From Alphaproteobacteria bacterium (lineage in GTDB: Bacteria; Pseudomonadota; Alphaproteobacteria; Rs-D84; CACZYB01), in NCBI GenBank assembly GCA_017938435.1, contig JAGBBO010000027.1:2264-66263 (forward strand): a stretch of DNA of 64,000 nt, given 5' to 3'. How positions within the stretch are numbered: position 1 is the first letter of the stretch; every line of letters begins with the position of its first letter. This document shows, in pieces, positions 24,788-54,187 of the stretch. A model generated the notes under the pieces. It did no database searches, was not told the DNA's origin, and saw only the letters and a list, made by a program, of their open reading frames with translations. The position numbers were made by a program, and so were the translations under genes.

Positions 24788-25291
24788 CTATCTGAAGTAA
24801 ATCGAAATTGTATCAACTTCACCTTCAGGACAGCTATTACCTGCATACGCAGTATTTGTTGTATTTTCAATCTTATTATCCAATGTATCCATCCATGACA
24901 TAGTTGTAAAATACAAACAATCTTGTGTTGAAACATTTGGAATATCAATCTTGAAACCAGGATTAAGACCTGTTGAATTAACAGATGTAACTGTATATAC
25001 ACCACCATAAGGTGTTTCAAGTTTCAATCCCATTTTTTTCAAAATTTCACCACCGATATCATAACCACCGCTAGTATCAGTATCTGATTTATTATAAGAA
25101 GTTCTTCCAGCAAAAACACCACGTGTTTCCTGAGCAAGTTTTGTTACTTGTTCAACAACATTGTTTCTGTTAATTTTACTGATAGCCTGTGAATACCCAG
25201 AAATACCCATAACTGTAATAACTCCCATAATTGCCAAAACACCAAGCATTTCAACAATAGAACGGCCAGAATCATTTTTTCTTATTAACAT
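24788..25291 (-). CDS. type IV pilin-like protein (prepilin-type N-terminal cleavage/methylation motif)
   Basis: Short basic leader ending in Gly, then RSIVEMLGVLAIMGVI with Glu at +5, a hydrophobic N-terminal helix, and C-terminal Cys residues. Confidence 0.65.
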   Translation of the reverse strand: MLIRKNDSGRSIVEMLGVLAIMGVITVMGISGYSQAISKINRNNVVEQVTKLAQETRGVFAGRTSYNKSDTDTSGGYDIGGEILKKMGLKLETPYGGVYTVTSVNSTGLNPGFKIDIPNVSTQDCLYFTTMSWMDTLDNKIENTTNTAYAGNSCPEGEVDTISIYFR

Positions 25292-33677: not shown

Positions 33678-34409
33678 ATGAAAAATACTGTTGTTAATAT
33701 TGTTTGTATGAAATGGGGAACAAAATTTGGTCCTCAGTATGTTAACCGTTTACATAAAATGGTTGAAAAGAACTTAACTCTTCCACACCGTTTTGTTTGT
33801 TTTACTGATGATGCAACAGGACTTGAAAAGGGTATTGAAACATTTCCTCTTCCAGAAGTAATATTCGAAGCTGGTCCTGAAAGAGGTTGGCGTAAACTTG
33901 GAATTTTTTCAAAAAAACTTGGCGATTTAAAAGGTGATGCATTATTTTTAGACCTTGATACTTTAATTTTAAGAAATATCGATGAATTTTTTAAAGTAAA
34001 AGGAGATTTCTTAATCATAAAAGACTGGGATTTTAAAAATTATATTGGTAATTCTTCTGTATTCAGATTCACCATTGGAAAACATAGTGATGTTTTAGAT
34101 TATTTCGAAGAAAATCGCTTTCAAATCAGAAAACAATTCAGAAATGAGCAAGCATATCTTTCATGGATGATGATGAAAAAGGGCATACTAAAATATTGGA
34201 ATAAAAAATGGTGTATCAGTTTCAAACGCCATTGTTTATGGCCATTTCCAATAAATTGGTTTAAAGAACCAAGACTTCCAGAAGAGGCAAAAATTTTAAT
34301 TTTTCATGGTCACCCAAATCCAGAGGAAGCATTTAAAGGCTATACCACCAAATATGGTTTTCGCCATATAAAACCAACCCTATGGCTTAACGATTTTTGG
34401 AAGGTATAA
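33678..34409 (+). CDS. putative glycosyltransferase (nucleotide-diphospho-sugar transferase-like)
   Basis: Conserved VCMKWGTKFG...FVCFTDD N-terminus. Sits inside a glycosyltransferase cluster. Family not firmly recognised. Confidence 0.35.
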   Translation: MKNTVVNIVCMKWGTKFGPQYVNRLHKMVEKNLTLPHRFVCFTDDATGLEKGIETFPLPEVIFEAGPERGWRKLGIFSKKLGDLKGDALFLDLDTLILRNIDEFFKVKGDFLIIKDWDFKNYIGNSSVFRFTIGKHSDVLDYFEENRFQIRKQFRNEQAYLSWMMMKKGILKYWNKKWCISFKRHCLWPFPINWFKEPRLPEEAKILIFHGHPNPEEAFKGYTTKYGFRHIKPTLWLNDFWKV

Positions 34410-34412
34410 TAT

Positions 34413-35402
34413 ATGATATCCTATCCTTTAATATCTGTATTACTACCAATTTACAATGCTGAACAATTTCTAACAAAATGTTTGAACAGTATAATTTCTC
34501 AAACATATACTAATATTGAAATAATATGTATTGATGACGGATCAACAGATAATTCTTTACAAATATTAAAAAATTTTGCAAATAATGACAAAAGAATTAT
34601 TGTTCATACAAGAACAAACAAGGGTGATCATATCACAAGGATGGAATTATTACAAAAAGTAAAAGGTAAATATTTTATCTTTATAGATAACGATGATTAT
34701 ATAGAACAAAATACAATTGAAACATTATATAATACTATGAATACACAAAATGTAGATATGGTTGAATGTAATGTAAATCATATACGACTTGGAAACAGAA
34801 ATACTAATTATGCGATAAAACATTTTGGGAAATTTAAAAATTTTGAATATATAAATTACTATAGTTATCCTTTATGGAATAAATTATTTAAAACAGAAAT
34901 AGTTAAAAATTTTAAAATAACATTTCCTAACAACCCTAATATAACTTGTGTATTTGATAAATGGTTTAATTTTGAATATATTTGTTGCTGTAAAAATATA
35001 TATGCTATCCCAGAAAAACTTTATAATTATTTAATTCATAACTCATCTACTTTAAGCAATATGGATTACAAAAAAAATATTTCTGATTTTTATTCTCTTA
35101 ATGAAACATATAACTTTTTAAAAAACAACAATTTATTTAAAACTTATCAAAATATATTCTTTAAAAAATTGATAAAATACTCATCAAAAATTATAAAAAA
35201 AGACATTTATTTTCAGGAAGCAAAAAAGGAAATTTTAACACTTGAAAAAAAATTGAAAAACGATTTTCCATTATCATTTTATTTATATAAACTAAAACAA
35301 ATATTTAATTTCAAAAATATTCTTTCAATAAAAAAATCTTTAGATGGAAAATCTAAAATAATAACATTATTTGGAATTAAATTTATCAAGGGAATAAAAT
35401 GA
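34413..35402 (+). CDS. glycosyltransferase family 2
   Basis: ISVLLPIYNAEQFL...IDDGSTDNS and DNDD (DxD). Confidence 0.8.
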   Translation: MISYPLISVLLPIYNAEQFLTKCLNSIISQTYTNIEIICIDDGSTDNSLQILKNFANNDKRIIVHTRTNKGDHITRMELLQKVKGKYFIFIDNDDYIEQNTIETLYNTMNTQNVDMVECNVNHIRLGNRNTNYAIKHFGKFKNFEYINYYSYPLWNKLFKTEIVKNFKITFPNNPNITCVFDKWFNFEYICCCKNIYAIPEKLYNYLIHNSSTLSNMDYKKNISDFYSLNETYNFLKNNNLFKTYQNIFFKKLIKYSSKIIKKDIYFQEAKKEILTLEKKLKNDFPLSFYLYKLKQIFNFKNILSIKKSLDGKSKIITLFGIKFIKGIK

Positions 35403-36259
35403 AACCAATTCTTGTTCATTGTCATATATACTACATAAATTTATACGAGGAATTAGAAACCTGCATAAAAAATATAACTGTTCCTTTTAAACTATATATA
35501 ACAATGGTTGAAAAAAATATTTCACTTATAAATAAAATAAACAAATCTTTTCCAAATGCAAAAATCGAAATAGTTGAAAACCGAGGATTCGATATTGCCC
35601 CATTTATTCATATTTTAAATAAAGTGAATTTGAACAATTATAGTTATATAATAAAATTACATACAAAAAGAGATATAAATGGATATGTATTTTATAACTA
35701 TCATAATCTAAGCAATAATCATTGGAGAAAATACCTACTATCATTCATATCTTCAAAGAAAAATTTTGAAAAAACAATCTCTATTCTTTCTAAAAATAAA
35801 AACATAGGTATGTGTTCAAATTATAAAGTTATCTGTTCCAAAACAAAATTTAAGAAAATAAAATCAAAAATTGATGAAATTTTTAAAAATCTAAATCTTA
35901 CATTAAAAACAAAAAAGTATGTTTGTGGCACAATGTTTATTGCAAAATCAGAATTATTTATCCCTATACAAAAACTTAATCTTTCAATATATGATTTTGA
36001 AAAACCACTAAATCACAATGATGGAACTCTTGCTCATATATTTGAAAGGATTTTTGGATACATAATATATGCACAAAATTACACAATAAAGGATGTTATC
36101 ACACCAAAACTAAAACAAATTATTGATTTTGAATTTATAACAATATTATTTAATTTAAAATTTTGGAAAGAACTTCTTTATCAAAAAAAAGATACCACCT
36201 CCGGAAAAACTATAATAAAAATACTTAAAATACCTGTATATAATAAGAAAAGGAGTTAA
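35399..36259 (+). CDS. RgpF-like (rhamnan-synthesis protein F family) glycosyltransferase candidate
   Basis: N-terminus ILVHCHIYYINLYEE resembles the RgpF family. Overlaps the neighbouring gene by 4 nt. Confidence 0.35.
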   Translation: MKPILVHCHIYYINLYEELETCIKNITVPFKLYITMVEKNISLINKINKSFPNAKIEIVENRGFDIAPFIHILNKVNLNNYSYIIKLHTKRDINGYVFYNYHNLSNNHWRKYLLSFISSKKNFEKTISILSKNKNIGMCSNYKVICSKTKFKKIKSKIDEIFKNLNLTLKTKKYVCGTMFIAKSELFIPIQKLNLSIYDFEKPLNHNDGTLAHIFERIFGYIIYAQNYTIKDVITPKLKQIIDFEFITILFNLKFWKELLYQKKDTTSGKTIIKILKIPVYNKKRS

Positions 36260-36262
36260 AAT

Positions 36263-37108
36263 ATGCCTAAAATATCTGCACTTATGCCTATATATAATAC
36301 ACCAAAAGAATATTTAACCAAAACAATAGAAAGTATTCTTTCTCAAACATTTACTGATTTTGAACTTATTATATTAAATGATTCTCCTAATAATAAAGAA
36401 TTGGAAAAAATCGTAAAATCTTATAAAGATAAAAGAATAAAATACCTATCAAATGAAAAAAATATAGGTATAACACCAAGCAGAAATAAACTTATAAATC
36501 TTGCAAAAGGTGAATATATTGCTATTATTGATCATGATGATATATCTATTCCTACACGTTTTTATGAAGAGGCTACTTATCTTGACAATAATCCTGATGT
36601 TGGTGTCGTAAGTGGGCAAATTCAATATTTTCAAAATAATCATGGGAAATCGAAACATAAAATTGAAGATGCGGATATAAAAATAAATTTACTAAATAGT
36701 ATTGCTGTTTCTCACCCTTGTGCCATGATAAGGAAATCTATACTGACAGAAAATAATATACAGTATGATGAAAAATTTACACCTGCAGAAGATTACAAAT
36801 TATGGATAGATCTTATTCCATACACAAAATTTCATAACATTGATAAAGTTCTTCTTTTATACAGAGATCACAAAGAAAACACTGCCAAAGTTCAAAATTA
36901 TAAAATAAATATGGCTACTGCAAAACTCCGTTCAATTTTAAAAGAAAAATACTCTTATTTATATGAGTATAAACTATTGACCATTGGGGGGGGTATCACC
37001 TTGAAATTACTAGGTTTTTTACCGATATTATCGATAAAAAAATACTCAAAAAAGGTAAAAGTATATTTATTTAATAAAATTTTAATACTAACAATAAAAT
37101 ACAAATAA
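36263..37108 (+). CDS. glycosyltransferase family 2 with internal poly-G(8) tract (likely phase-variable)
   Basis: ISALMPIYNTPKEYL...DHDD motifs. G8 run at 36986..36993 encodes GGG about 40 codons before the stop. Confidence 0.75.
   Translation: MPKISALMPIYNTPKEYLTKTIESILSQTFTDFELIILNDSPNNKELEKIVKSYKDKRIKYLSNEKNIGITPSRNKLINLAKGEYIAIIDHDDISIPTRFYEEATYLDNNPDVGVVSGQIQYFQNNHGKSKHKIEDADIKINLLNSIAVSHPCAMIRKSILTENNIQYDEKFTPAEDYKLWIDLIPYTKFHNIDKVLLLYRDHKENTAKVQNYKINMATAKLRSILKEKYSYLYEYKLLTIGGGITLKLLGFLPILSIKKYSKKVKVYLFNKILILTIKYK
36986..36993 (+). repeat. homopolymeric G8 tract inside the GT2 gene
   Basis: Direct read: ccattGGGGGGGGtatc. G/C homopolymers of 7 or more are very rare in this AT-rich window. 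Confidence 0.9.
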
Positions 37109-37111
37109 AAA

Positions 37112-38689
37112 ATGCAAAATAAAAAATTAGATTTCATTTCAAAAATTATGATTCAAGGATTACTTGTAACATTTATATTTATGTTACCAGATATAATTTT
37201 TAAACTATTCCAATCGTCCCCTATAAAATTTAGTGGTGGAATGGTTACTCAAATATTTTTATTTGCTATACTTTCTTCATCAACTCACTCAAAAAAATTC
37301 CGTTATTTTCTTTGGAGTTTTTGGGGCATCTTTATGACAATGGAATTATGTCATTTTGCATTTTTTGGATCTTTATCAACACCATACACATACATCTGGA
37401 TGATAAGTGAGTTAAAAGATACATTTGACGGTGCCTTACATTCGATACATTTATTTTATGCACCATTATCCGTAATAATACCTTTTGTTTTACTATTTTG
37501 GATTGATAAAAAATTTGATAAAAATATAAAACGAAGTAAAATTTCAACAATAATTTTATCTATTGCACTATTTTATATGGCTATAGATGTAAATCGCCAA
37601 AATCGTGCATTTTTCTATGCTTCTGAAAGAGAAAGTAATCCAACATTTATTGCGACAACACGAAAAACTAATTTTATAATTTTCAAAGCAATTCCTAAAT
37701 TATTATTTCGCGGATACAATACAAATTTCAAACCCTATGAAATAACAAAAATTACTTCACCTGAAAAAATCAACATAATTTATATATTCGGAGAAAGTGG
37801 TAACCCAAACTTTTTTTCCATTGACTCGGCAACGAAACAGACAAGACAAGACAGCACCACTCCACACCTTGATAATTTAAAAAATGATGCTACTTTTTGG
37901 TATAGTCGAGGTTTTTCATCAAGCGTTTCCACAATATATTCTGTGATGATGAATTTTTATATGCAACGAGAACCAGAAAATCACGATGTTCAAATAAATA
38001 AAAAATCAGATATTTTACAATTGGTCAAAAATGCAGGATTTAAATCATGGTTTATCGAAGCACAAAATACTTCTCCTGATTACAAAGATAAAATTGATTT
38101 CGTATATTTAATAGAAAACGAAGTAAATAAAAACGGCGAAGAAATTGCCCTTAATTATTTTCCAAAATTAACTGAACTTTCAAATAAAAATTTTATACTT
38201 TATCACCAAAATATTATGCACTTTGATTATAAAAACCACTACGAAAAATTTGGGGATAAATGGAAAAAATTTAAACCATCAGATAATTCATTAGCCGAAG
38301 AAAAAATCTCTGAATATAAAAATTCTGTTTTCTATTGGGATTATATAATTGGAAAAATTTTCAATTATGCAAAAAATGTCGCCGAAAAAACTAATGCTCC
38401 AACTTATGTTATATATATGAGTGACCACGGTGAACTTATCGGAGAAAATAAACGAGGTCATTCTATTTTATCAAAAGAAGTTGCTACCATTCCTATGTTT
38501 GTAAAATGTTTTAATTGTTCAAATGTAAATGAATTTAAAATAAAAAATCCAACTCATTATAGAATAAATGAAAAACTTTTACATCTTATAGGATACCACC
38601 TACACAACCCAAATGATGACGGAAAAACTTTCTACATAAATGGAAAAAGTTTATACGGCGATGACGGATTTATAACAATGACCGACTAA
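37112..38689 (+). CDS. phosphoethanolamine transferase / sulfatase-family membrane protein (EptA/Lpt3-like)
   Basis: N-terminal multi-TM region. C-terminal sulfatase-type motifs (IIYIFGESGNPNFF, YVIYMSDHGE). Confidence 0.6.
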   Translation: MQNKKLDFISKIMIQGLLVTFIFMLPDIIFKLFQSSPIKFSGGMVTQIFLFAILSSSTHSKKFRYFLWSFWGIFMTMELCHFAFFGSLSTPYTYIWMISELKDTFDGALHSIHLFYAPLSVIIPFVLLFWIDKKFDKNIKRSKISTIILSIALFYMAIDVNRQNRAFFYASERESNPTFIATTRKTNFIIFKAIPKLLFRGYNTNFKPYEITKITSPEKINIIYIFGESGNPNFFSIDSATKQTRQDSTTPHLDNLKNDATFWYSRGFSSSVSTIYSVMMNFYMQREPENHDVQINKKSDILQLVKNAGFKSWFIEAQNTSPDYKDKIDFVYLIENEVNKNGEEIALNYFPKLTELSNKNFILYHQNIMHFDYKNHYEKFGDKWKKFKPSDNSLAEEKISEYKNSVFYWDYIIGKIFNYAKNVAEKTNAPTYVIYMSDHGELIGENKRGHSILSKEVATIPMFVKCFNCSNVNEFKIKNPTHYRINEKLLHLIGYHLHNPNDDGKTFYINGKSLYGDDGFITMTD

Positions 38690-43941: not shown

Positions 43942-45105
43942 TTATTTATATTGTTTCATTAACTTTTCATAGTTGCTTAATGAATTATCAACCGCTTCAA
44001 TCATTTCACAAACCTTTTGTTTATCAATATCAAACTCAGATGCAACGGTAATAAAATCATCATTGGTAATATCTTTACCCTTACCATTTACCATTGTTGT
44101 TTGCTCTCCATTTATTCCAAACGAAGGTGTTAAATCGTATGCAGGAGCTAGTTTCCAATTATTATTCCTATCAATCAAATATGAAAAATTCTTTGTATGG
44201 TCATCCTTATTACCTGCTTTAACATTAAATATCATAAGACGAACCATTTTTTCAACTTCCTTAATATCTTTTGTTAAGACAAAAGTAAGTTTTAAAAGGT
44301 TTGTATAATCCATACTTGAAACACGAAAATCAGCATTAAGTAAACCACATGCAGTATGAGTATGAACTTTTTGATTTCCTACTCGGTCAAATCTTTTTAC
44401 ACCAAAATATCCACTGGAAATTTGTGATGGAAATAAATAAGTTTCAGGCATTTCAATACCTGCATCCTTTGCAATAAGTGAATAAACATACTCTTGAACA
44501 CCAAGGTTTTTATCATCCTGAGTATTTGAAAATTTTATAAGCCAATGTGAAAAATTATCAGGAAAATCCTTTGATGGAGAAAGTATTGTTTTTTTATCAT
44601 TAGATACCAACGCAACAATTTTTGGTCTTGCACCACCAGATGAACCATTTAATTTCAAAAGTTCATCAAGACCATTATTTGATTTATCAAGTAATATTTT
44701 CTTTGCATCTTGTGCCAAAAAATCCAAATTTACATCAGGCATATCATCAATATCTTCAGATGGTTCATATTCCAATGCTCCCATAGGATTATTACCCACC
44801 ATTGAAAGCCTATGAAGTGGCCTTATTGAATTAAATGACAAACCTTGTTTTTGTAATTTCCTATCAAGAAGTAAACACCCCCAACCATCCGGAAGACTAT
44901 CATTAAATACACCAAATAAACCACCAAAAATACTATTATCACCTTCAAATACTCTTTCCTGTAAAGGTAGTTTAAAAGGTGAAATTTCAATACCTTCCTT
45001 TATAAATTCAGGTGCATATTGAAAATAAATTTTTGCACCTATATCTTCCAATACACCTACAAATTTTCTTGAACCATAAGTATTAAGGTATACATTTAAT
45101 TTCAT
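43942..45105 (-). CDS. hipA: type II toxin-antitoxin HipA-family serine/threonine kinase toxin
   Basis: 387 aa. HipA N-terminal and C-terminal kinase-like regions. Overlaps the upstream HTH gene by 4 nt. Confidence 0.8.
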   Translation of the reverse strand: MKLNVYLNTYGSRKFVGVLEDIGAKIYFQYAPEFIKEGIEISPFKLPLQERVFEGDNSIFGGLFGVFNDSLPDGWGCLLLDRKLQKQGLSFNSIRPLHRLSMVGNNPMGALEYEPSEDIDDMPDVNLDFLAQDAKKILLDKSNNGLDELLKLNGSSGGARPKIVALVSNDKKTILSPSKDFPDNFSHWLIKFSNTQDDKNLGVQEYVYSLIAKDAGIEMPETYLFPSQISSGYFGVKRFDRVGNQKVHTHTACGLLNADFRVSSMDYTNLLKLTFVLTKDIKEVEKMVRLMIFNVKAGNKDDHTKNFSYLIDRNNNWKLAPAYDLTPSFGINGEQTTMVNGKGKDITNDDFITVASEFDIDKQKVCEMIEAVDNSLSNYEKLMKQYK

Positions 45106-45422
45106 TTTAATTTACCTCTTTTACGTTGTTTTACTTTAACAGGATTGATTAACGATACAGGTTTATCATCAGGTTTAAGTAAATTATCAAACTCATCCAA
45201 TACATTTAATATCAAAGCAATTTTTAATAATGCTTGTAATGATATTTCTCCACTATTTTCAAAACGTTTTAATGTTCCAAGTGAAACACCCGAACGTTCG
45301 GATAAACCTTCTTGTGTAAGGTTTTTATCCAACCTTTTTTGTTTAAACCGAAATGCAATTTCCTTTTGCACCTCTTGATTTGTTTTTAATAAATATGCCA
45401 TAATAGTCAATATATTATCCAT
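45102..45422 (-). CDS. hipB: HipB-like XRE-family HTH antitoxin/repressor
   Basis: HTH LTQEGLSERSGVSLGTLKRFENSG. Alternative start at 45401 (MAYLL...). Confidence 0.7.
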   Translation of the reverse strand: MDNILTIMAYLLKTNQEVQKEIAFRFKQKRLDKNLTQEGLSERSGVSLGTLKRFENSGEISLQALLKIALILNVLDEFDNLLKPDDKPVSLINPVKVKQRKRGKLK

Positions 45423-45466
45423 TAAATTGATTATTTATATATAATATACAATATATTATCCATTAA
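45408..45466. promoter_or_regulatory. two perfect 18-bp direct repeats (caatatattatccattaa) at the hipB start, a candidate HipB operator/promoter
   Basis: Copies at 45408..45425 and 45449..45466. They contain the TATCC core typical of HipB operators. Confidence 0.45.
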
Positions 45467-45501
45467 GTAAAGTAAAAAATAAAATATTCATTATATAATA
45501 T

Positions 45502-45536
45502 TAACTTCGTTTCAACTCGAACGAAGTTATTTTTTA
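45502..45536 (+). terminator. 10-bp perfect stem-loop plus T-run (terminator-like hairpin) in the hipB/methyltransferase divergent region
   Basis: taacttcgtt-tcaactcg-aacgaagtta-TTTTTT. Confidence 0.45.
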
Positions 45537-45763
45537 TACTAATGAAAAAATATTAAAAAAAAATTTTACATAATTTCCCCGTAAAATCAACAGGTTAGCA
45601 TTTTATATATAAAACAACTAATTCGGAGCCGTATGTTTTTAAAATTTTTACCCATTCTTTATATATAGAGGGTGAATTTTACCCTACTACAACTTTTGTT
45701 GTTTTACATCGTGAATAAGCTCTCCCCCTAATTTTTAAACAAAATTTTAAGGAAACATTTAAA

Positions 45764-46696
45764 ATGATTTTTAAAGATGATTTTGATAGAAATATTGAAG
45801 CAATACGTCTCGAAAGAGAGACTTTAGATAAACAACTCAAAGAAGAAGAGTCTAATAGCTCTCGAAATTCTTATGTAAAATTTACAAATGAATTAATCGA
45901 AAAATCTATTTTACTCTTAAGACTTGAGTTTGAAAAAATCAAACCTCTTTTGAATGAGACACCAAGTGCCCAGGGAGCAAGAACCGATATTGACTCTAAG
46001 GTTATGACAAAACAATTTGTCGAACAAATACTCAACCTAAAACACAAACAGGCTTGGGAAATCCAACAACTAACCAAAGAGTCTGTCGACCTTGCAATCG
46101 ATTACGCAAAAGAAAATAATATCTTAGCCACTCGTTCCTTAGCACTCAGATTACTTCAAAAAAATAAAAAAGAAGAGTCAATTCATATCAATCCATCCGA
46201 AATTTATGATGATGAAGAAATTATTGAAGAAAAAAGTCAAATCAAAAATAATACCTTATATAATGTAATATACATTGATTTGACTAATTCATACAATAAA
46301 AATGATTTGACTCATCTCCCTATAGCAGATGATGCAATTTGTTTTGTCTGGACCAAACCAAATGACTTATCAAAAGCATTATCTACTATAAATGAACTTG
46401 GTTTTGTATATCAAAATAGCCTCGTCTGGGATAAAGATATTAAAAATACAAATACTTATATCCAAAACCACCACGAGCTACTTTTAATAGGTTTAAAAAA
46501 TAAATATAAAATTAATCAAAATAATAAATTTATATTTGATTCAATTTATTTTGAACACCAAACAAACAAAACCACTAAACCAGACTATTATTATTCTTCA
46601 ATCGAAAAAATATGTCCAAACCAAAAATATTTAGAAGTCTTTTCTGACAGAAAATATAGCGAAAAATGGACTGTTTTCGGAGGTAAAAATGAATAA
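45764..46696 (+). CDS. MT-A70-like (Dam-like N6-adenine methyltransferase fold) protein with degenerate DPPW motif (YIDLTN), N-terminal coiled-coil
   Basis: Motifs VIYIDLTNSY / AICFVWT / LVWDKD / HELLLIGLKN / C-terminal KWTVFGGKNE align with MT-A70 family blocks. The catalytic PPW is lost. Confidence 0.55.
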   Translation: MIFKDDFDRNIEAIRLERETLDKQLKEEESNSSRNSYVKFTNELIEKSILLLRLEFEKIKPLLNETPSAQGARTDIDSKVMTKQFVEQILNLKHKQAWEIQQLTKESVDLAIDYAKENNILATRSLALRLLQKNKKEESIHINPSEIYDDEEIIEEKSQIKNNTLYNVIYIDLTNSYNKNDLTHLPIADDAICFVWTKPNDLSKALSTINELGFVYQNSLVWDKDIKNTNTYIQNHHELLLIGLKNKYKINQNNKFIFDSIYFEHQTNKTTKPDYYYSSIEKICPNQKYLEVFSDRKYSEKWTVFGGKNE

Positions 46697-47813
46697 TAAT
46701 ACAAATATAGTAAAATACCTATCCCTCTTTTCTTGTGGGGGGATAGGTACTTATCTATTAAAAGATATTGGTTTTAAATGTGCTGTTTCAAATGAATTGG
46801 ATATAGTCCGAGCTACATATCACCAAGATTTATATAAAGATGATAAAATGATTATTGGTGATATAAGAGAAAAGAAAAAGGAAATAATCCAATCCTATAT
46901 TGAAACTGGTTGTTCGGGAATATTAGCATCCCCTATATGTCAACCTTTTTCATTAGCTGGTGGTCAACATCTTAACGACCCGGAAACATTACTATTTTTG
47001 GATGTTTTAGATATTACCCAAGCTACAAATCCTGATTTTTTATTGATTGAAAATGTTCCTTACTTCATATCAGATAAACAATCTCCAATTATTACAAATA
47101 AATTGGGTGGTAAAACTATCAAACAATACATCACAGATTTTTTAACAAATCTTGGTTATGAAGTAAACATTAACAAAATAAAAGCATGTGATTATGGAAC
47201 CGCACAAAAAAGGGAAAGAGGAATAATCCTTGCATGTAAAAAGGAATTTGGTAAATGGAATTTTCCAAAGAAAGATGATAAAATTTTAACATTAAAAGAT
47301 GTTATAGGTAATGGAAGATTTAAATCACTGGAACCTGGTGAACGTGATAAAAATAATCCACTACACTATGCAGAATATGTTAATCCAGACCAAGCGGAAT
47401 GTTTAAGACATACACCAACCGGTCAATCAGCTTTATTAAATATTGGTAAATGGAAAATAAAAAATATCAACGGAACTGAATCAAAAGCTCAACATAAAAG
47501 TGCTTTTGGTAGAGCTAAATGGGATGAACCATGCCCAACTATTGTTATGTCTAGTGATAGTATAAGTGGTGATTGGTCTGTTCATCCTGGTTATAAAAAA
47601 CCTGATGGTACTTATTCCGACCCAAGACCTTTTTCCATTGCAGAACTTTTCGCAATTACCGGTCTCCCAGACACTTATTATAATGATATACCTGACTGGG
47701 CAAAAGGTAATCACAAACTTTTACGACAATTAGTTGGTGAAAGTTTTTGTCCTCTGGTTGTAAAAAGACTTATGCAAGAGTTGAAAAAAGTTTTACCAGC
47801 TTTTAAATCTTAA
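46689..47813 (+). CDS. DNA (cytosine-5)-methyltransferase
   Basis: Motif I LFSCGGIG, motif IV SPICQPFSLAGG, motif VI IENVP, C-terminal GESFCPLV. Starts 8 nt before the upstream gene's stop. Confidence 0.9.
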   Translation: MNNNTNIVKYLSLFSCGGIGTYLLKDIGFKCAVSNELDIVRATYHQDLYKDDKMIIGDIREKKKEIIQSYIETGCSGILASPICQPFSLAGGQHLNDPETLLFLDVLDITQATNPDFLLIENVPYFISDKQSPIITNKLGGKTIKQYITDFLTNLGYEVNINKIKACDYGTAQKRERGIILACKKEFGKWNFPKKDDKILTLKDVIGNGRFKSLEPGERDKNNPLHYAEYVNPDQAECLRHTPTGQSALLNIGKWKIKNINGTESKAQHKSAFGRAKWDEPCPTIVMSSDSISGDWSVHPGYKKPDGTYSDPRPFSIAELFAITGLPDTYYNDIPDWAKGNHKLLRQLVGESFCPLVVKRLMQELKKVLPAFKS

Positions 47814-47820
47814 ACGAAAG

Positions 47821-47853
47821 ACACCTCATATTAAATTATGGGGTGTTTTTTTA
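47821..47853 (+). terminator. rho-independent terminator after the C5-methyltransferase gene
   Basis: 9-bp stem acacctcat/atggggtgt (one G.U pair), 8-nt loop, T7. Confidence 0.75.
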
Positions 47854-48061
47854 TACCTAAAAAATTCCCGAAAGTCTGAATCAAAATTGAAGTCGGTTCT
47901 ACAGATTGTGCACATACATAGGATTTTGGGATATTTAAGGCTGTTAATCGCTTAAAAGTTAACAAAATCCGTTTGATTATAACAATAGGATTTACAACAA
48001 AATCCTTTGTCACTTTTATACCCTAATTTTTTAAAAATAATTATTTAAGGATTGCATAAAA

Positions 48062-48532
48062 ATGACAAACTTAAAAACTGAATTAATAAAATGGATTGAT
48101 AACACTTACAAGCCGAAATATCTTATGACAATACAACTTCCGGAAAATTTGAAGAGTAATAATCTTGAACATTCCATAAATCATTTAAAAAGTATTATGA
48201 GAGATTTTGAAAAATTTTTACTTAAAAGACATTGGAATAAAAAACATTTACCATTTATAGCATTTGCAGAAAATGGAATATCAAAGGATTGGCATTTTCA
48301 CTTGTTACTAAATGGTGATAACTTTTCATATATTGATTTAAAAATTGCAATATATAGGATAATTTTAAAACAAAAAATACCAACATATTGTATACAACTT
48401 GATAAAATTGAAGATGGTATAGCCAAAGTTGAATCCTACACAATTAAGGAAATAAAAATAACGGATTTTAATAAATTTGATAGTGATAGGATGATACTTT
48501 CACAAGATTTATTTAATATTGAAAAGAAATAA
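48062..48532 (+). CDS. small HUH-motif protein (possible Rep/relaxase-like or Y1-transposase-like endonuclease)
   Basis: KDWHFHLLLNG (His-hydrophobic-His-3 hydrophobic) followed about 60 aa later by ESYTIKEIK (YxxK). Preceded by a 7-mer repeat array. Assignment is speculative. Confidence 0.3.
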   Translation: MTNLKTELIKWIDNTYKPKYLMTIQLPENLKSNNLEHSINHLKSIMRDFEKFLLKRHWNKKHLPFIAFAENGISKDWHFHLLLNGDNFSYIDLKIAIYRIILKQKIPTYCIQLDKIEDGIAKVESYTIKEIKITDFNKFDSDRMILSQDLFNIEKK

Positions 48533-48638
48533 TCAATCCCTTTCTACCCCATATCAACGAAACAACCTTAGATTATAAATTATAAGCCAGAACTGTAACT
48601 ACTCAATTCTGGCTTATTTATGTGAATTTATGGAATGT

Positions 48639-48953
48639 TTAGTATTCTTCTGCTAACATAACAGTCATTACTCTAATGGTCTTTGTTATATCTGCAGGAT
48701 TATCTGAGTAGTATTGTAAATTCCGGTCATAATAATCAATTTTCCACATTATCTTTTCACCATCATACTCAAAACTTCCGTAATCGTGTTCATTGTATGG
48801 GTCATTTTTGTGGTTGAAATCATTGAACATCTTCACACTATCCAAGATTTCATTTATTGCTTTTTGCCCCTTACTGAAAATGCCTCTGGTCAACATCACT
48901 TTTCCACCTAAAAGGCTTTTACGGAAGTTATCATTTAATGTTATAATATCCAT
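48639..48953 (-). CDS. hypothetical protein, possibly DUF3768-like (mobile-element associated)
   Basis: C-terminus ...TIRVMTVMLAEEY resembles the DUF3768 family. From memory only. Confidence 0.35.
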   Translation of the reverse strand: MDIITLNDNFRKSLLGGKVMLTRGIFSKGQKAINEILDSVKMFNDFNHKNDPYNEHDYGSFEYDGEKIMWKIDYYDRNLQYYSDNPADITKTIRVMTVMLAEEY

Positions 48954-48955
48954 TT

Positions 48956-49084
48956 TTATATCCTTACAATTTCAGTTACTACAACATGACCACGTTGTTT
49001 TTCTGCTCTACATGCATTCATTGCATCACGAAGTTTATAGTAAATCGTAGGCATTAAAATTCCGTTTACTTTTATTTGAAACAT
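48956..49084 (-). CDS. small ORF (42 aa), translationally coupled within a three-gene operon
   Basis: Its ATG lies 1 nt after the upstream stop and its stop lies 2 nt before the downstream start. Below the ORF-track size cutoff. Found by reading the sequence. Confidence 0.25.
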   Translation of the reverse strand: MFQIKVNGILMPTIYYKLRDAMNACRAEKQRGHVVVTEIVRI

Positions 49085-49085
49085 C

Positions 49086-49337
49086 TTATCTAACCTCCAC
49101 ACTCAAGAATTTATTAAATCTACGCAAAGCCTGTTTAACTGATGTATGGCTTCTATTACCATAAGCATATTTATCTCCAGTTTCATATTCAGGAAGTATA
49201 TTTGCAATATTTTGAATAAGCATATCCAAGGAGATGTTTTCCTTTTTGCAAAGTCTTTCAATTCTGCCTTCATAATCTTTAGCAGTGTTGATTTTATAGT
49301 TGTTTTCGATTAACCAATTTTTAAATTTTTTAAGCAT
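49086..49337 (-). CDS. hypothetical small protein (83 aa)
   Basis: First gene of the tightly coupled minus-strand operon. Divergent from the RM gene. Confidence 0.35.
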   Translation of the reverse strand: MLKKFKNWLIENNYKINTAKDYEGRIERLCKKENISLDMLIQNIANILPEYETGDKYAYGNRSHTSVKQALRRFNKFLSVEVR

Positions 49338-49679
49338 TTTTAAACCCTTTCATTTTTGTTTTTACATATATAATTATGTCGTGTTGTTTTGGGTTTGTAA
49401 GCGAAAAAATGCATAAAAACGCAAGAAAAATAGCCATTTTTGAGTAAAAATTAAGAATTTTATAGGTTTGTATTGCTGGGAACACAAACCTTATTACATC
49501 GATGTAACAAACTTTACATTAATTATTTGTAGTGTAAAACTACGGACAAATTATTTGTTACTCATTTTAGGTGACAATTAGTTAACGTGTTTTATCCCGA
49601 AACATATAACAAAAATTTTGATTTTATTCATAAACTATGATATAATTTTAAAAGATAAAATTATTATTGGAGTTATCAA

Positions 49680-51596
49680 ATGGCAAAAAAGGAAGCAAAA
49701 ACCGATTTGTGGGTATATAAATTATTAACTCAAGCAGATATTGAACTTGAACCTCAAGGAAGTTCCATTAAAGAAATTAATGAAGCATTAAAAACAGCCT
49801 CCAAAAAAGGAACAGGCAATGTCGGTTATCCTGAATATGTAGGTATTGTAAAAGATTTTATTTTAGTTATTGAAGATAAAGCTGATATTAATAAACATAT
49901 CAACAAAGAAAATGATATTATACTTCAAGACCCAAATTCATGTGTCGATTATGCAGTCAATGGAGCATTATTTTATGCAAAACATTTAATAAAAAATACA
50001 TCCTTTAAAAAAGTAATTGCATTTGGGATTTCAGGCAATCAAAAAATACATAAAATAAGCCCTATTTTCGTTGATACAACAGAATATTATAGGGAATTAC
50101 CAGATGTTGAATCCTTTATAAGTTTTAATGATAAAAACATTATGGAATATTACACCCATGAAATATTAAAGGAAGAGACAAACATTGAAAAGGAAACCGA
50201 GGAAATCCTAAAAGATGCAAGCCAACTTCATGAAGATTTAAGAAATTATGGAAATTTAACCGATACCGAAAAACCACTAGTAGTTTCAGGTATTTTACTT
50301 GCTTTGGATGAAGCTGAACAAGGAAATTTTTCCATTGATAATTTAACTGGGGATAGTATAAAAACTGATGGTCAAAAAATATACAATGCTATACAAGATA
50401 ATCTTAAGCGAGTTAGAGTTGCTCCTGATGTTAAAAGGGATAAAATATTATCACAATTTTCCGTAATAAAAGATGCTACGAAGTTAAATGAAAAGGATGA
50501 TACATTAGGTAAAACTCCTTTAAAATATTATGCAGAGTTTTTATATGAAAAAATTTATAAATCAATAAAATATAATAGTTCTGCAGAGGATTTTATCGGT
50601 CGTTTTTATGGCGAATTTATGAGTTATAGTGGTAATAATGGTCAAAGTTTAGGTATTGTTTTAACACCAAAACATATAACTCAATTATTCTGTGATTTAC
50701 TTGATTTACAATCTGACGATAAAATCCTTGACCCTTGTTGTGGAACTGGTGGTTTCCTTATTGCGGCAATGCATAACATGTTTGCAAAAGCAAAAAATCC
50801 TAATGAAAGGGAAAACATAAGACAAAATCAACTTTTTGGTTTTGAATTACAACCTTATATGTTTGCTATTGCAACAACAAATATGATTTTAAGGGGTGAT
50901 GGTAAGAGTAATTTACAATGTGAAGATTTCTTGAAACAACCAAGTAATAAACTTCAACTAAATGGTTGTAATGTTGGTATGATGAATCCTCCATACAGTC
51001 AAGGTTCAAAGAAAAATCCAAACCTTTATGAAATTGCATTTGTCGAACATTTGCTTGATTCACTTGTAAAAGGTGGAAAATGTGCTGTTATTGTCCCACA
51101 ATCATCTATGACCGGGAAATCAAAGGAAGAAGCAGCTATAAAACAAAATATATTAAAACATCATACATTGGAAGGTGTAATTACACTAAACAAAGATACA
51201 TTTTATGGTATCGGAACCATGCCTTGTATTGCTATATTTACAGCAGGGAAACCTCACGACAAAGACCATATTTGTAAATTTATCAATTTTGAAAATGATG
51301 GTTATAAAGTTGCTCCACATATTGGATTACTTGAAACCGAAAGTGCAAAAGATAAAAAACAACATTTACTTGATGTCTGGTTTGATAAAGTTAATGAAGT
51401 TCCAACAAAATTCTGTGTAAAAACGACAGTTGAAGATACTGACGAATGGTTGCACAGTTTTTATTATTTTAATGACGAAATCCCAACTGATGAAGATTTT
51501 GAAAAAACTGTTGGTGACTATTTATCATTTGAATTTTCAATGATTATGCAAGGCCGTAAATACCTTTTTGAAGAGGAGGATATTGAAAATGCTTAA
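49680..51596 (+). CDS. BcgI-A-like fused restriction endonuclease / N6-adenine methyltransferase subunit (Type IIB/IIG-like)
   Basis: N-terminal PEY-x13-IEDK (PD-(D/E)xK-like) region. Motif I LDPCCGTGGFL. Motif IV MMNPPYS. 638 aa (BcgIA is 637 aa). No separate HsdR nearby. Confidence 0.65.
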   Translation: MAKKEAKTDLWVYKLLTQADIELEPQGSSIKEINEALKTASKKGTGNVGYPEYVGIVKDFILVIEDKADINKHINKENDIILQDPNSCVDYAVNGALFYAKHLIKNTSFKKVIAFGISGNQKIHKISPIFVDTTEYYRELPDVESFISFNDKNIMEYYTHEILKEETNIEKETEEILKDASQLHEDLRNYGNLTDTEKPLVVSGILLALDEAEQGNFSIDNLTGDSIKTDGQKIYNAIQDNLKRVRVAPDVKRDKILSQFSVIKDATKLNEKDDTLGKTPLKYYAEFLYEKIYKSIKYNSSAEDFIGRFYGEFMSYSGNNGQSLGIVLTPKHITQLFCDLLDLQSDDKILDPCCGTGGFLIAAMHNMFAKAKNPNERENIRQNQLFGFELQPYMFAIATTNMILRGDGKSNLQCEDFLKQPSNKLQLNGCNVGMMNPPYSQGSKKNPNLYEIAFVEHLLDSLVKGGKCAVIVPQSSMTGKSKEEAAIKQNILKHHTLEGVITLNKDTFYGIGTMPCIAIFTAGKPHDKDHICKFINFENDGYKVAPHIGLLETESAKDKKQHLLDVWFDKVNEVPTKFCVKTTVEDTDEWLHSFYYFNDEIPTDEDFEKTVGDYLSFEFSMIMQGRKYLFEEEDIENA

Positions 51597-52116
51597 GTTA
51601 ACTGATAGGAAATGGAAAGAGTTTAAAGTTGGTGATTTATTTACTATTGAAAAATGTAAATGTTCAAATGCTTCATTATTTAATTCAGGTAATATTCCTT
51701 ATGTAGGAGCAACTAATAAAAATAATGGAACAATGAATTTTATAACAACTGATAAAAAGTATATAACAAAAGGAAATTGCTTAGTTTTTATTTGTGATGG
51801 TCAGGGGTCTGTTGGATATTCAATATATAAAAAGGAAAATTTTGTTGGTTCAACAACACTTAAAATAGGAAGGAATCCACTACTAAATGAACATAATGCA
51901 TTATTTTTCACAACATCACTTGATAAAAATAAAAATATATATAGTTATGGTTATAAAAGAAATGAAAACAGATTAAAAAATGAACATATTCTTCTTCCTG
52001 TAAATAACACAAATCTTCCCGATTATAAGTTTATGGAAGACTACATTAAGGAAGTTATGATAAGAAAACGTAAGGAATATATAAGCTATGCTGAATCCAA
52101 ACTAATGGGGGGGTAA
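51568..52116 (+). CDS. HsdS-like specificity subunit, N-terminal half (TRD1), truncated at a poly-G tract
   Basis: The HsdS target-recognition-domain-like sequence overlaps the upstream gene's end. Terminates at TAA immediately after G7. Confidence 0.7.
   Translation: MKRRILKMLKLTDRKWKEFKVGDLFTIEKCKCSNASLFNSGNIPYVGATNKNNGTMNFITTDKKYITKGNCLVFICDGQGSVGYSIYKKENFVGSTTLKIGRNPLLNEHNALFFTTSLDKNKNIYSYGYKRNENRLKNEHILLPVNNTNLPDYKFMEDYIKEVMIRKRKEYISYAESKLMGG
52107..52113 (+). repeat. homopolymeric G7 tract separating the two halves of the specificity gene
   Basis: Direct read: aatGGGGGGGtaa. A +1 G puts 51568..52649 in one frame with no intervening stop. Confidence 0.9.
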
Positions 52117-52232
52117 AATATCAGCAAATTCAAACACTTAGAGATAAAAAGTGGAAAGAATTTAGTATTATAAATTTATTTGATAGTATACAAAGAGGAA
52201 AACGTCTTATAAAGGATAATCAAACAAAAGGT

Positions 52233-52649
52233 ATGATACCTTATGTTTCATCAACTTCACTTAACAATGGTATTGATAATTTTATTTCCTATGAAAAATC
52301 ATCAATGAGGAAATTTAACAATTGTTTAAGCCTTGCAAACAGTGGTAGTGTTGGTTCAACTTTTTATGAACCATTTTCTTTTGTGGCAAGTGACCATATA
52401 ACTCATTTAAAAAATAAATCCTTTAATCAAAATACATATTTATTTTTAGCTTCCCTATGTAATCGTTTATCAAAAAAATATAATTTCAACAGAGAAATAA
52501 ATGATACAAGAATTTCAAGGGAAAAAATAATGCTTCCTGTAAATTCCGATGGAGAACCTGATTATAAATTCATGGAAGATTATATTTCAAATATAACATA
52601 TAATAAATATAATGATTATATAACCTATGCAAAATCACAAATTTGCTAA
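52233..52649 (+). CDS. HsdS-like specificity subunit, C-terminal half (TRD2); the frame is open upstream to about 52117
   Basis: Second TRD. It ends with the same DYKFMEDYI...YITYAKSQI conserved repeat as half 1. Confidence 0.65.
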   Translation: MIPYVSSTSLNNGIDNFISYEKSSMRKFNNCLSLANSGSVGSTFYEPFSFVASDHITHLKNKSFNQNTYLFLASLCNRLSKKYNFNREINDTRISREKIMLPVNSDGEPDYKFMEDYISNITYNKYNDYITYAKSQIC

Positions 52650-52675
52650 ACAACCTCATTCCAACAGGAATAAAG

Positions 52676-54187
52676 TTATTTCTTTGCCATAATCTTCTTC
52701 CACTTATCAAATTCAGGTTGAAGGAAGTCATAACTAAATTTTTCATACTCTTCTTTGATTTGTTTTAAACTAAAATTTGAGTAAGATTGTTCCATTGTAT
52801 CTTTACCTTCCCATCCAATGATTGCATTTATAATTGTTGGAATCAAACCTGCAGATTGCAAAGCCAAACTTGCATTTTTACGGAAAGAATGGAAATCATA
52901 ACCTTTGTCTTTTACACCTATTTCCTTAAAAAACTTAAATAAATATCTATCCAAATATTTATTATTATATTCACCACCACTAGTTAAAATTTTTGAAAGT
53001 ATAAAATCATCATTTTTCTTACTTTCCTTAATTTTTTTGAATTCAAAATATTCAACAAAACCAAGGTCTAGCAACTGTTTATGTATTGGAACAATTCGTT
53101 CCGATGCATCATTTTTCAAATGCTTTATAGCATGATTTTCTTTAAATTCAAAACAATACATACCATCTTTTACAATTATATCACCGTATTGCAAAGTTGT
53201 TGCTGCATTTGCACGGGCACCAGTAAATAAAGCAACTAAACAAATCCAAAATAATTCAGGATTATCCTTAAAAAATTCATGTTTTGGATTAAATATTTCC
53301 TTAAGTTGAACTTCACTATATGGCAAATGAGGTTGTCTTTCACTCTTTTTTGTTTTTTCAATTTTTGGCATAGATACAAGAATATTTTTCTTGTAAAAAT
53401 CAGGTTCAAGTTCACATGCAAAACAGACAAATTCCTTTATATATCTAAGTTTCTGACGCTTATTGTCGTTTTTTACATTAACATCATTAGCTATATCTTG
53501 TGAAATTTTATCAATAATATCTGTTTTATGAAAAGTTGAATAATCATCATCTGGAGATAAACCTAATTTTGTAAAAACTCCATTGAAAAAGTTAGTCTTA
53601 CGCTTAGTCTCAGCTTCACAATTATTTGCATTTTGAAGCATTTTTTCCAAAATGTACTTAAGTGTATGTTTAGGAGGTGTAATATTAGCATTACTTCCTG
53701 CAACAAATGGAATTCCACCTTGTTTTTCAATTAAATCTGCTAATTTCTTGAATTTTTCAAAATTTTCAACAACTTGCTTTTCTTGCCTATACTTTTCAAT
53801 ATTTGCATTTATATCAGAAAATACCTTCATAAACTCAATCAATGTTTCAGGCTTATTATTTTTTGATAAAACTAACTCATCAGGAATATTAAGCATAAAT
53901 CCATATCCCCCAAATACTGAAGATTGGTTTCGACGCCAATAAACATTAATTTGTGAATATAATTGACTGAGTTTATTAAACTTGTCATTAAAATCATTAA
54001 TTTCAACCATCTTAGCCAAAGCCTCATAATAATCATTTGTATATAAGGAATAGCACAAATAACGTCTTTTTCCTTCCACTCTTGGTAATTCCATTCTACA
54101 ATAAAAAAACCCATTCCTCAACCATAAATGTGGCTTAATTTTTGTTTTTGCCATACACTTTGCCATACAGTTGCTAAACATTTGCAA
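52676..54187 (-). CDS. tyrosine site-specific recombinase (phage-type integrase)
   Basis: C-terminal catalytic region with the R...HSFRKN...GW...Y pattern. 503 aa. Adjacent to the tRNA attachment site. Confidence 0.8.
   Translation of the reverse strand: MQMFSNCMAKCMAKTKIKPHLWLRNGFFYCRMELPRVEGKRRYLCYSLYTNDYYEALAKMVEINDFNDKFNKLSQLYSQINVYWRRNQSSVFGGYGFMLNIPDELVLSKNNKPETLIEFMKVFSDINANIEKYRQEKQVVENFEKFKKLADLIEKQGGIPFVAGSNANITPPKHTLKYILEKMLQNANNCEAETKRKTNFFNGVFTKLGLSPDDDYSTFHKTDIIDKISQDIANDVNVKNDNKRQKLRYIKEFVCFACELEPDFYKKNILVSMPKIEKTKKSERQPHLPYSEVQLKEIFNPKHEFFKDNPELFWICLVALFTGARANAATTLQYGDIIVKDGMYCFEFKENHAIKHLKNDASERIVPIHKQLLDLGFVEYFEFKKIKESKKNDDFILSKILTSGGEYNNKYLDRYLFKFFKEIGVKDKGYDFHSFRKNASLALQSAGLIPTIINAIIGWEGKDTMEQSYSNFSLKQIKEEYEKFSYDFLQPEFDKWKKIMAKK

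What the first reader, a model, noticed from the sequence alone, without database searches (positions are those of the whole stretch)
36263..37108. Poly-G8 tract inside a GT2 glycosyltransferase of the surface-glycan locus
A G8 run at 36986..36993 lies within the GT2 gene. The frame is currently open to 37108. G7 or G9 would truncate or replace the last 40 or so residues. Together with the G7 tract in the RM specificity gene, these are the only G/C runs of 7 or more in the window, and both fall in contingency-type genes. That pattern is the hallmark of slipped-strand phase variation of LOS or capsule structures.
Basis: partly seen in the sequence, partly recalled or inferred. Interest (0 to 1): 0.6.

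Follow-up and report, generated by a model that had tools for sequence, protein, structure and literature searches.

The report
Poly-G tract in glycosyltransferase gene
A run of eight G's near the end of a sugar-transferase gene in an uncultured rumen bacterium is the kind of slippery DNA that can switch surface sugars on and off; a sister tract in the same genome does slip in nature, but this gene is "on" in almost every public assembly.

Summary
G8 lies at 36986..36993, in codons 242-244 of a 281-aa GT2 gene (36263..37108). It and a G7 in hsdS are the only G/C runs of 7 or more in the window. G8 is the ON frame. The 37 residues after the tract are conserved in 112 homologues and fold as a confident four-stranded beta-meander. 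G7 truncates the protein to 246 aa and G9 replaces the tail (270 aa). The organism is an uncultured ruminant-gut alphaproteobacterium with 30% GC.

Poly-G slippage is real in this species. A 7,061-nt stretch from another sample differs from the window by one base only, an extra G in the hsdS tract. That G fuses the two half-genes into a 353-aa HsdS. Both states are common in public assemblies.

At the GT2 tract the evidence is thinner. Every one of the 9 tracts read was G8, across about six SNP haplotypes, and all 20 contigs of 20 kb or more encode the G8-frame protein. One contig carries GGT+G9 (+4 nt), which is frameshifted. Orthologues in other species have no tract there.

Verdict: a credible candidate contingency locus of the classical Campylobacter/Neisseria type, held ON. 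It is a new member of a known kind, and switching at this gene is not yet demonstrated.

The parts
36263..37108 (+). GT2 (GT-A fold) glycosyltransferase gene, 281 aa, ON frame with G8
   Evidence: ORF. PF00535 E=6.7e-28. DHDD motif D90-D93 invariant or nearly so. AF2 pLDDT 93.4. Foldseek top hits are SpsA and TarP. The protein is identical to MBP3615901.1.
36986..36993 (+). Poly-G8 tract. It encodes Gly242-244 (GGG GGG GGt), the loop between helix 231-240 and the C-terminal beta-meander.
   Evidence: It is G8 in L002-L006 and L092-L094. It is GGT+G9 in L001.
36994..37108 (+). Coding region for the conserved C-terminal module (37 aa: 9 Lys, no acidic residue, 21 hydrophobic; four predicted beta-strands). 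It is lost or replaced by any +/-1 change in the tract.
   Evidence: Conservation. Structure. Composition. Frame effects.
33678..36259 (+). Three upstream genes on the same strand (243-aa unknown, 329-aa GT2, 286-aa RgpF-like). They are packed with gaps of 3 nt or less or with overlaps, so an operon with the GT2 is inferred.
   Evidence: The spacing is read from the coordinates. The promoter scan was uninformative.
37112..38689 (+). Downstream sulfatase-family, phosphoethanolamine-transferase-like gene (525 aa). It starts 4 nt after the GT2 stop and is a possible target of a polar or coupling effect in the OFF frames (inferred).
   Evidence: PF00884 E=2.6e-21. NCBIfam P_eth_NH2_trans, CptA and EptA hits, all below cut-off.
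51589..52116 (+). Sister locus: hsdS first half (TRD1, 175 aa), ended by the stop that directly follows the G7 tract.
   Evidence: PF01420. Sequence. The product P0127 was found on 9 contigs read.
52107..52113 (+). Poly-G7 tract in hsdS. G8 fuses TRD1 to TRD2 (353 aa). Both alleles occur in nature.
   Evidence: L089 is G8, L091 is G7, and L090 is CTA+G8. L089 differs from the window by this single G over 7,061 nt.
52117..52649 (+). hsdS second half (TRD2). It is open in the +1 frame all the way from the tract and is annotated separately as 138-184 aa ORFs.
   Evidence: PF01420..

Best explanation
The G8 run is a slippage-prone homopolymeric tract that puts the GT2 glycosyltransferase under stochastic frameshift control. 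This is a candidate contingency locus. With G8 (or G5/G11) the full 281-aa enzyme is made. A +/-1 slip during replication changes the frame at codon 244 or 245, so the conserved basic and hydrophobic C-terminal beta-meander (residues 243-279) is deleted (G7, G10) or replaced by an unrelated tail (G9, G12). This most likely inactivates or mislocalises the enzyme, and one sugar of an LOS/LPS-type surface glycan would then be missing. Early termination 38-108 nt before the next start codon might also lower translation of the downstream PEtN-transferase-like gene. In rumen populations the ON state is strongly favoured. OFF cells would therefore be a minority subpopulation that becomes dominant only under particular selection, for example by phage. 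What is shown: the tract, the frames, conservation of the tail, slippage in this species at hsdS, and one natural out-of-frame GT2 allele. What is inferred: the switching rate at this tract, loss of function, the phenotype, and any adaptive value.
For: The tract and the frame consequences are read directly. G8 is the ON frame: homologues of 280-290 aa cover 97-100% of the query, and they conserve the post-tract tail. AF2 gives pLDDT 93.4, with a four-stranded beta-meander right after the tract-encoded loop. The solved GT2s SpsA and TarP match only the catalytic part, with TMq about 0.6. Across haplotypes all SNPs in the gene are synonymous, including two just before and after the tract, at 36982 and 37066. 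The same species shows true poly-G length polymorphism. The predicted G8-fused HsdS (353 aa) exists exactly, on 7 contigs read, and the G7 half-protein on 9. One G is the only difference in 7,061 nt. A natural frameshifted GT2 allele exists: L001 has ATTGGTGGGGGGGGGTAT, which is +4 nt and gives a 271-aa product. Its gene is otherwise intact, and it sits in a haplotype family whose other members are G8. Codon choice is atypical, since GGG is 10.6% of Gly codons, and orthologues have no Gly at this site. The gene class and tract length match classical cases: in C. jejuni wlaN, G8 is ON and G6 or G9 is OFF (PMC7142995). G8 tracts in C. jejuni mutate at rates within 1e-4 to 1.6e-3 per division, with a bias to insertions (PMC8355987).
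Against: At consensus level the tract is almost invariant. All 9 tracts read, from about six haplotypes that are 1-4% diverged, are G8, and all 20 contigs of 20 kb or more encode the G8-frame protein. No product of a pure G5, 6, 7, 9, 10, 11, 12 or 13 tract exists in the 15-billion-protein collection. The single variant is complex (GGT+G9). It lies on a short 2.3-kb contig and could be a fixed mutation or an assembly error rather than a switch. GT2 orthologues in 80 related species carry no G/C run of 7 or more. Related loci as a whole are not enriched for such runs. By count alone the two runs in the window are only marginally more than a first-order model predicts. The tract lies at 86% of the gene, so residual activity of truncated forms cannot be excluded. 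The mismatch-repair status of the organism is unknown.
Confidence: 0.55

Rival explanations
1. The tract is incidental coding sequence: a Gly-Gly-Gly loop that happens to be spelled GGGGGGGG. It slips like any G8 run, but frameshift mutants are simply deleterious and are purged. There is no adaptive ON/OFF switching, and the gene is effectively constitutive.
For: G8 is found in essentially all assemblies and haplotypes, and no simple +/-1 products are on record. There is no tract in orthologues and no general enrichment of runs in the clade. About one G/C run of 8 or more per 2-Mb genome at 30% GC is expected by chance (my own calculation from the base frequencies). There is a precedent: N. 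gonorrhoeae ispH carries an unvarying G8 in all strains compared (PMC5320596).
Against: The other long run in the same window is a proven polymorphic switch in a classical contingency gene. The rare GGG codon is used twice in a row. One natural out-of-frame allele has an otherwise intact gene. The gene class is the one most often phase-variable in other host-associated bacteria.
Confidence: 0.35
2. C-terminal phase variation rather than ON/OFF switching. The three frames would give three functional isoforms (native tail, 27-aa alternative tail, truncated) with different localisation or acceptor specificity, or the tract would mainly tune translation of the downstream PEtN-transferase-like gene.
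For: The tract is at 86% of the ORF and the catalytic GT-A domain (about residues 1-240) stays intact in all frames. A C-terminal class of SSR switching is described for H. canadensis and N. gonorrhoeae (PMC5320596). The genes are 4 nt apart.
Against: Only the G8 frame is conserved among homologues. The alternative tail shows no conservation and changes with a synonymous SNP (F to L). No alternative-frame products are on record except one.
Confidence: 0.07
3. The tract, or its only variant, is a sequencing or assembly artefact.
For: Homopolymers are error-prone. The one variant (L001) is a short contig with an odd interrupted run.
Against: G8 itself is reproduced in many independent assemblies from different studies and assemblers (ENA, Logan, NCBI, JGI). 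The hsdS G7 and G8 alleles are each seen on several long contigs.
Confidence: 0.03

Closest known systems
Campylobacter jejuni wlaN (cj1139c) and cgtB: poly-G phase-variable LOS beta-1,3-galactosyltransferases
   Same: An intragenic poly-G tract lies on the coding strand of an LOS-type glycosyltransferase in an AT-rich gut bacterium. G8 is the full-length ON state and +/-1 gives truncated products (PMC7142995). From my own knowledge, WlaN and CgtB are also CAZy GT2 enzymes.
   Different: The wlaN tract lies at nt 331 of 912, so OFF removes most of the protein. Here it lies at nt 724 of 846, so only the C-terminal module is lost. wlaN tract lengths (5, 6, 8, 9, 10, 11) vary freely among isolates, whereas here G8 is nearly fixed. 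Orthology was not tested. The host is an uncultured alphaproteobacterium, not a campylobacter.
Neisseria and Haemophilus LOS glycosyltransferase contingency genes (lgtA, lgtC, lgtD with poly-G; lic2A and lgtC with tetranucleotide repeats)
   Same: SSR frameshift switching of LOS outer-core transferases. (G)8 in lgtC is known to vary (PMC5320596). A GT8 RfaI/J/LgtC-like gene is also in this locus.
   Different: Those tracts lie near the 5' end and are experimentally proven. The lineage is different. The GT8 here carries no tract.
C-terminal phase variation (Helicobacter canadensis; N. gonorrhoeae NGK_1211, mafB, ispH)
   Same: The repeat lies toward the 3' end, so slippage swaps the C-terminal residues between three frames. 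ispH has a (G)8 that did not vary among the strains compared, yet it is listed as a candidate (PMC5320596).
   Different: Here one frame is clearly the conserved native one, so the outcome is more likely ON/OFF than isoform switching.
NgoAV Type I hsdS poly-G switch of N. gonorrhoeae (Adamczyk-Poplawska 2011, cited in PMC5320596)
   Same: This applies to the sister tract. A poly-G (G7, G8 or G9) between the two TRDs of hsdS yields either a truncated one-TRD HsdS or a full two-TRD HsdS (here).
   Different: No hsdR was seen in the window. The M and S genes sit on an integrase-bearing island. The methylation specificities are unknown.

Membership tests
SSR (homopolymeric-tract) translational phase-variable gene / contingency locus | A mononucleotide G/C tract of about 7-8 nt or more inside the reading frame | tested here: met
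   G8 at 36986..36993 within ORF 36263..37108.
SSR (homopolymeric-tract) translational phase-variable gene / contingency locus | A +/-1 change in the tract shifts the frame and changes or truncates the product, with one frame giving the conserved protein | tested here: met
   G7 gives 246 aa, G9 gives 270 aa, and G8 gives 281 aa with a tail conserved in 112 homologues.
SSR (homopolymeric-tract) translational phase-variable gene / contingency locus | Tract length differs between strains or within populations while the flanks stay the same | tested here: inconclusive
   There is one variant (GGT+G9, L001). Against it stand G8 in all 9 tracts read and the G8-frame protein on all 20 contigs of 20 kb or more. 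No pure +/-1 products are on record.
SSR (homopolymeric-tract) translational phase-variable gene / contingency locus | The host organism shows SSR instability at comparable tracts | tested here: met
   hsdS G7 and G8 alleles both occur. A single G is the only difference in 7,061 nt between samples.
SSR (homopolymeric-tract) translational phase-variable gene / contingency locus | Reversible switching at high frequency (about 1e-5 to 1e-2 per division) with a phenotype | not testable with these tools
   This needs reads, single-colony analysis or cultures. The organism is uncultured.
GT2 family glycosyltransferase (GT-A fold, inverting) | A Pfam or CAZy GT2 domain, a DxD-type metal/nucleotide-sugar motif and a GT-A fold | tested here: met
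   PF00535 E=6.7e-28. D90-H91-D92-D93 is conserved. AF2 model plus Foldseek hits to SpsA and TarP at E about 1e-17. A PDB profile search gives SpsA at 1.9e-25.
C. jejuni WlaN/CgtB beta-1,3-galactosyltransferase | Orthology, and Gal transfer to GalNAc in the LOS outer core | not tested
   No sequence comparison with WlaN was made. The best NCBIfam hit is EpsE-like, far below cut-off (102 vs 450 bits). The donor and acceptor are unknown.
C-terminal phase variation class | A repeat near the 3' end, with the alternative frames giving alternative C-termini that are used | tested here: inconclusive
   The position criterion is met: nt 724 of 846. There is no evidence that the alternative tails are functional or conserved.
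Phase-variable Type I HsdS (NgoAV-like), sister tract | A poly-G between TRD1 and TRD2, with truncated one-TRD and full two-TRD forms both occurring | tested here: met
   hsdM is adjacent (PF02384). No hsdR was found in the window.

The most novel reading that the evidence does not exclude
This uncultured ruminant-gut alphaproteobacterium may run a Campylobacter- or Neisseria-style 'phasome'. That would include an hsdS methylation-specificity switch (one-TRD versus two-TRD HsdS, already seen in both states in nature) and a poly-G switch on an LOS/LPS glycosyltransferase. To my knowledge, SSR contingency loci have not been described for gut commensal Alphaproteobacteria, and two literature searches found none. 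If the reading is right, phase states could be read directly from rumen metagenome reads.
Probability: 0.4. Interest if true: 0.55.

Novelty: new member of a known kind. Interest (0 to 1): 0.35.

Why it matters
If the GT2 tract really switches, a commensal and uncultured rumen alphaproteobacterium would diversify its surface glycan by the same hypermutable-repeat trick known from mucosal pathogens. Through hsdS it would also diversify its methylome. That would extend contingency loci to a new lineage and lifestyle. Phage pressure in the rumen would be the likely selective agent. It would also offer a system in which ON/OFF ratios can be measured in vivo from existing metagenome reads. If the tract does not switch, it is a useful caution: a G8 in a glycosyltransferase is not by itself evidence of phase variation.

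Tried and rejected
1. I looked up by exact sequence the predicted GT2 products for G5, 6, 7, 9, 10, 11, 12 and 13, on two SNP backgrounds. None is in the collection.
2. I scanned JGI metagenome contigs with the flanks and a variable gap. There was one hit, and it was G8.
3. I looked up the exact upstream and downstream neighbour proteins to catch GT2 variants regardless of frame. All 21 contigs collapsed to one place with a 281-aa GT2.
4. I fetched 80 related-species loci to ask whether the tract is positionally conserved. It is not. The peptide patterns also missed the window's own species, because it has GEYIAIIDH.
5. I tested whether related loci are enriched for G/C runs. They are not, apart from a few tracts of 9-14 nt.
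6. The promoter and terminator scan equalled its shuffles and was uninformative.
7. I suspected a frameshift in the downstream gene of L094, which is annotated as 451 aa. The gene is intact and only the annotated start differs.
8. I rejected the idea that the tail is dispensable.
9. I rejected an assembly artefact as the origin of the tract.

Full report
**The observation.** The window reads GACCATT-GGGGGGGG-TATCACC, with the G run at exactly 36986..36993. It lies inside ORF 36263..37108 (+, 281 aa). A scan of all 64 kb (30.4% GC; G is only 12.9% of the + strand) finds just two G/C runs of 7 or more. These are this G8 and a G7 at 52107..52113. Next come a G6 at 46737 and nothing longer than C5. 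Replacing the tract in silico gives 246 aa for G7 (…GGVSP*, stop at 37002..37004) and 270 aa with an unrelated tail for G9 (stop at 37072..37074). G5, G8 and G11 keep the native tail.

As a pure count, the excess over chance is moderate. Expected G runs of 8 or more number 0.004-0.04 per window. For G or C together, the expectation is 0.05-0.24 for runs of 8 or more and 0.3-1.1 for runs of 7 or more, depending on the null model. GGG is a minority Gly codon (10.6%), so GGG-GGG-GGT is an unusual spelling of Gly-Gly-Gly.

**What the gene is.** The product hits Pfam Glycos_transf_2 at E=6.7e-28 and generic GT2 NCBIfam models far below their equivalog cut-offs. Its neighbours on the same strand are a 243-aa unknown, a 329-aa GT2 and an RgpF-like protein. 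Downstream, 4 nt after the stop, lies a sulfatase-family, phosphoethanolamine-transferase-like protein. Divergently upstream is a 650-aa GT8 (RfaI/J-like). Further downstream are an AlgX/DHHW-MBOAT pair and, further upstream, a GT1. No Wzx/Wzy, ABC or Kps export genes were seen. "Surface-glycan locus" is therefore right, and LOS/LPS-core decoration fits better than capsule, though this is an inference.

The protein is identical to MBP3615901.1 of an "Alphaproteobacteria bacterium" MAG. Matching contigs come from sheep-rumen and other ruminant gut metagenomes. Homologues at 45-58% identity are mostly from uncultured gut Alphaproteobacteria, including Candidatus Enterousia and "Azospirillum sp. 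51_20".

**Which frame is ON, and does the tail matter?**
- Homologues are 280-290 aa long and cover 97-100% of the query.
- In alignments of 20 and 112 sequences the segment after the tract is conserved, with the consensus LFGFIPxLxI…KVYLF..ILL. P254 is invariant, and L249, G251, L269 and F270 are present in at least 90% of sequences.
- The tract-encoded GGG replaces a variable linker (KATxxTR in the homologues) without changing its length.
- AlphaFold2 on the 112-sequence alignment gives mean pLDDT 93.4. It places Gly242-244 in the loop between helix 231-240 and a four-stranded C-terminal beta-meander (243-279, pLDDT 80-90).
- Solved GT2 enzymes (SpsA, TarP, WrtF) match only the catalytic GT-A part, with TMq of about 0.6.
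- The tail has 9 Lys, no acidic residue, and 21 hydrophobic residues out of 37. This suggests a membrane-association or oligomerisation module, which is an inference.
- Across SNP haplotypes of the species every substitution in the gene is synonymous, including two that flank the tract.

G8 is therefore the ON frame, and the tail is under purifying selection. The "dispensable tail" refutation does not apply.

**Does poly-G slip in this organism?** Yes, at the sister tract. The G7 at 52107..52113 is followed at once by a stop that ends a 175-aa half HsdS (TRD1). The +1 frame stays open through a second TRD as far as 52649. The product predicted for G8, a 353-aa two-TRD HsdS, exists exactly in the public protein collection on 7 contigs read, including a 588-kb contig. 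The G7 product exists on 9 contigs read.

The DNA confirms that L091 is G7 and L089 is G8. A diverged strain (L090) has CTA+G8 in the third frame. L089 differs from the window by that single extra G and by nothing else over 7,061 nt. This is the textbook signature of a hypermutable repeat. It parallels the NgoAV hsdS poly-G switch of N. gonorrhoeae (PMC5320596).

**Does the GT2 tract itself vary?** Barely, at consensus level.
- The G8-frame protein was found on 24 contigs read, in 27 index blocks.
- All 20 contigs of 20 kb or more that carry the exact flanking genes also carry the G8-frame protein.
- Every tract I could read was G8: L002-L006 and L092-L094. Together with L001, these loci represent about six haplotype groups that differ from the window by 0-4%.
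- None of the products predicted for G5, 6, 7, 9, 10, 11, 12 or 13 is on record.

The one exception is L001 (ENA ERZ28593756, a 2.3-kb scaffold). It reads ATT-GGT-GGGGGGGGG-TAT, which is 12 nt instead of 8 and gives the 271-aa out-of-frame product P0124. The rest of its gene is intact, with only synonymous differences. It shares SNPs with a haplotype family whose other members (L092, L094) are G8. It could be an expanded tract with a G-to-T interruption, two separate events, or an assembly error.

GT2 orthologues in 80 other species have no G/C run of 7 or more. Related loci as a whole are not enriched for such runs. A few do carry strikingly long tracts in glycan genes: two G12 in L064, a C9 in a capsule-synthesis GT in L036, and a C14 in L015.

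**Interpretation.** The most likely reading (about 0.55) is a genuine slippage-prone tract that makes the GT2 a candidate contingency gene. On this reading it is held ON by selection in the rumen, and OFF cells arise as minorities. The main rival (about 0.35) is that the tract is an incidental spelling of a Gly loop. Its frameshift mutants would simply be purged, as is suspected for the unvarying (G)8 in gonococcal ispH (PMC5320596). Isoform-type C-terminal phase variation, or a mainly polar effect on the downstream gene, is possible but unsupported. An artefact is excluded for the tract itself.

In C. jejuni, SSR tracts mutate at 1e-4 to 1.6e-3 per division, G8 tracts are biased toward insertions, and this occurs in the absence of mismatch repair (PMC8355987). 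The repair status here is unknown.

**Comparison and novelty.** The closest analogue is C. jejuni wlaN, where G8 is ON and G6 or G9 is OFF (PMC7142995). Two things differ. The wlaN tract sits early in the gene (nt 331 of 912) whereas this one sits late (nt 724 of 846). wlaN tract lengths also vary widely among isolates. The mechanism is classical.

What is new is the host, an uncultured commensal ruminant-gut alphaproteobacterium. Two full-text searches found no report of SSR phase variation in such organisms. I rate it a new member of a known kind, with modest interest. The hsdS switch is the better-supported discovery. Read-level tract counts in the named samples would settle the GT2 question.

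Noticed in passing
window 51589..52649 (tract at 52107..52113): hsdS is split by a G7 tract, and G8 restores a 353-aa two-TRD HsdS. Both alleles are common in public assemblies (9 versus 7 contigs read). One sample differs from the window by this single G over 7,061 nt. A third allele (CTA+G8) occurs in a diverged strain. This is a natural, NgoAV-like specificity switch.
   Followed up: yes
window 43942..54187: An integrase-bounded island carries HipA plus an HTH protein, an MT-A70-like methylase, a C5 cytosine methylase, a Rep-like protein, DUF3768 and HsdM/HsdS. No hsdR was seen. The only G6 in the window (46737..46742) lies 48 nt into the C5-methylase ORF.
   Followed up: partly
L064:4466-4477 and L064:6473-6484; L036:1173-1181; L015:9195-9208: Related gut MAG contigs carry much longer tracts next to the GT2 homologue. 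L064 ('Azospirillum sp. 51_20') has two G12: one near the end of a polysaccharide pyruvyl-transferase fusion and one in an unknown ORF. L036 has a C9 in a Caps_synth glycosyltransferase. L015 has a C14 at the 5' end of an unknown gene. These are candidates for SSR switching elsewhere in gut bacteria.
   Followed up: partly
window 35675..35760 (RgpF-like gene 35399..36259): Between strains there is a short hypervariable, indel-rich segment: 286 aa in the window versus 282 aa in L003 and L093. The surrounding genes differ only by scattered SNPs.
   Followed up: no
whole window: The strand composition is strongly asymmetric. C is 17.6% and G is 12.9% on the + strand, yet all three G runs of 6 or more are on the + strand and in + strand genes, and no C run exceeds 5.
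   Followed up: no
L032:588-595 and L071:7760-7767: Low-GC relatives have C8 tracts. In L032 the tract lies at the 3' boundary of a PilS-like pilin ORF, next to fliX. In L071 it lies at a frame break in an unannotated ORF. The window also has a PilS-like ORF at 24788..25291, without a tract.
   Followed up: no
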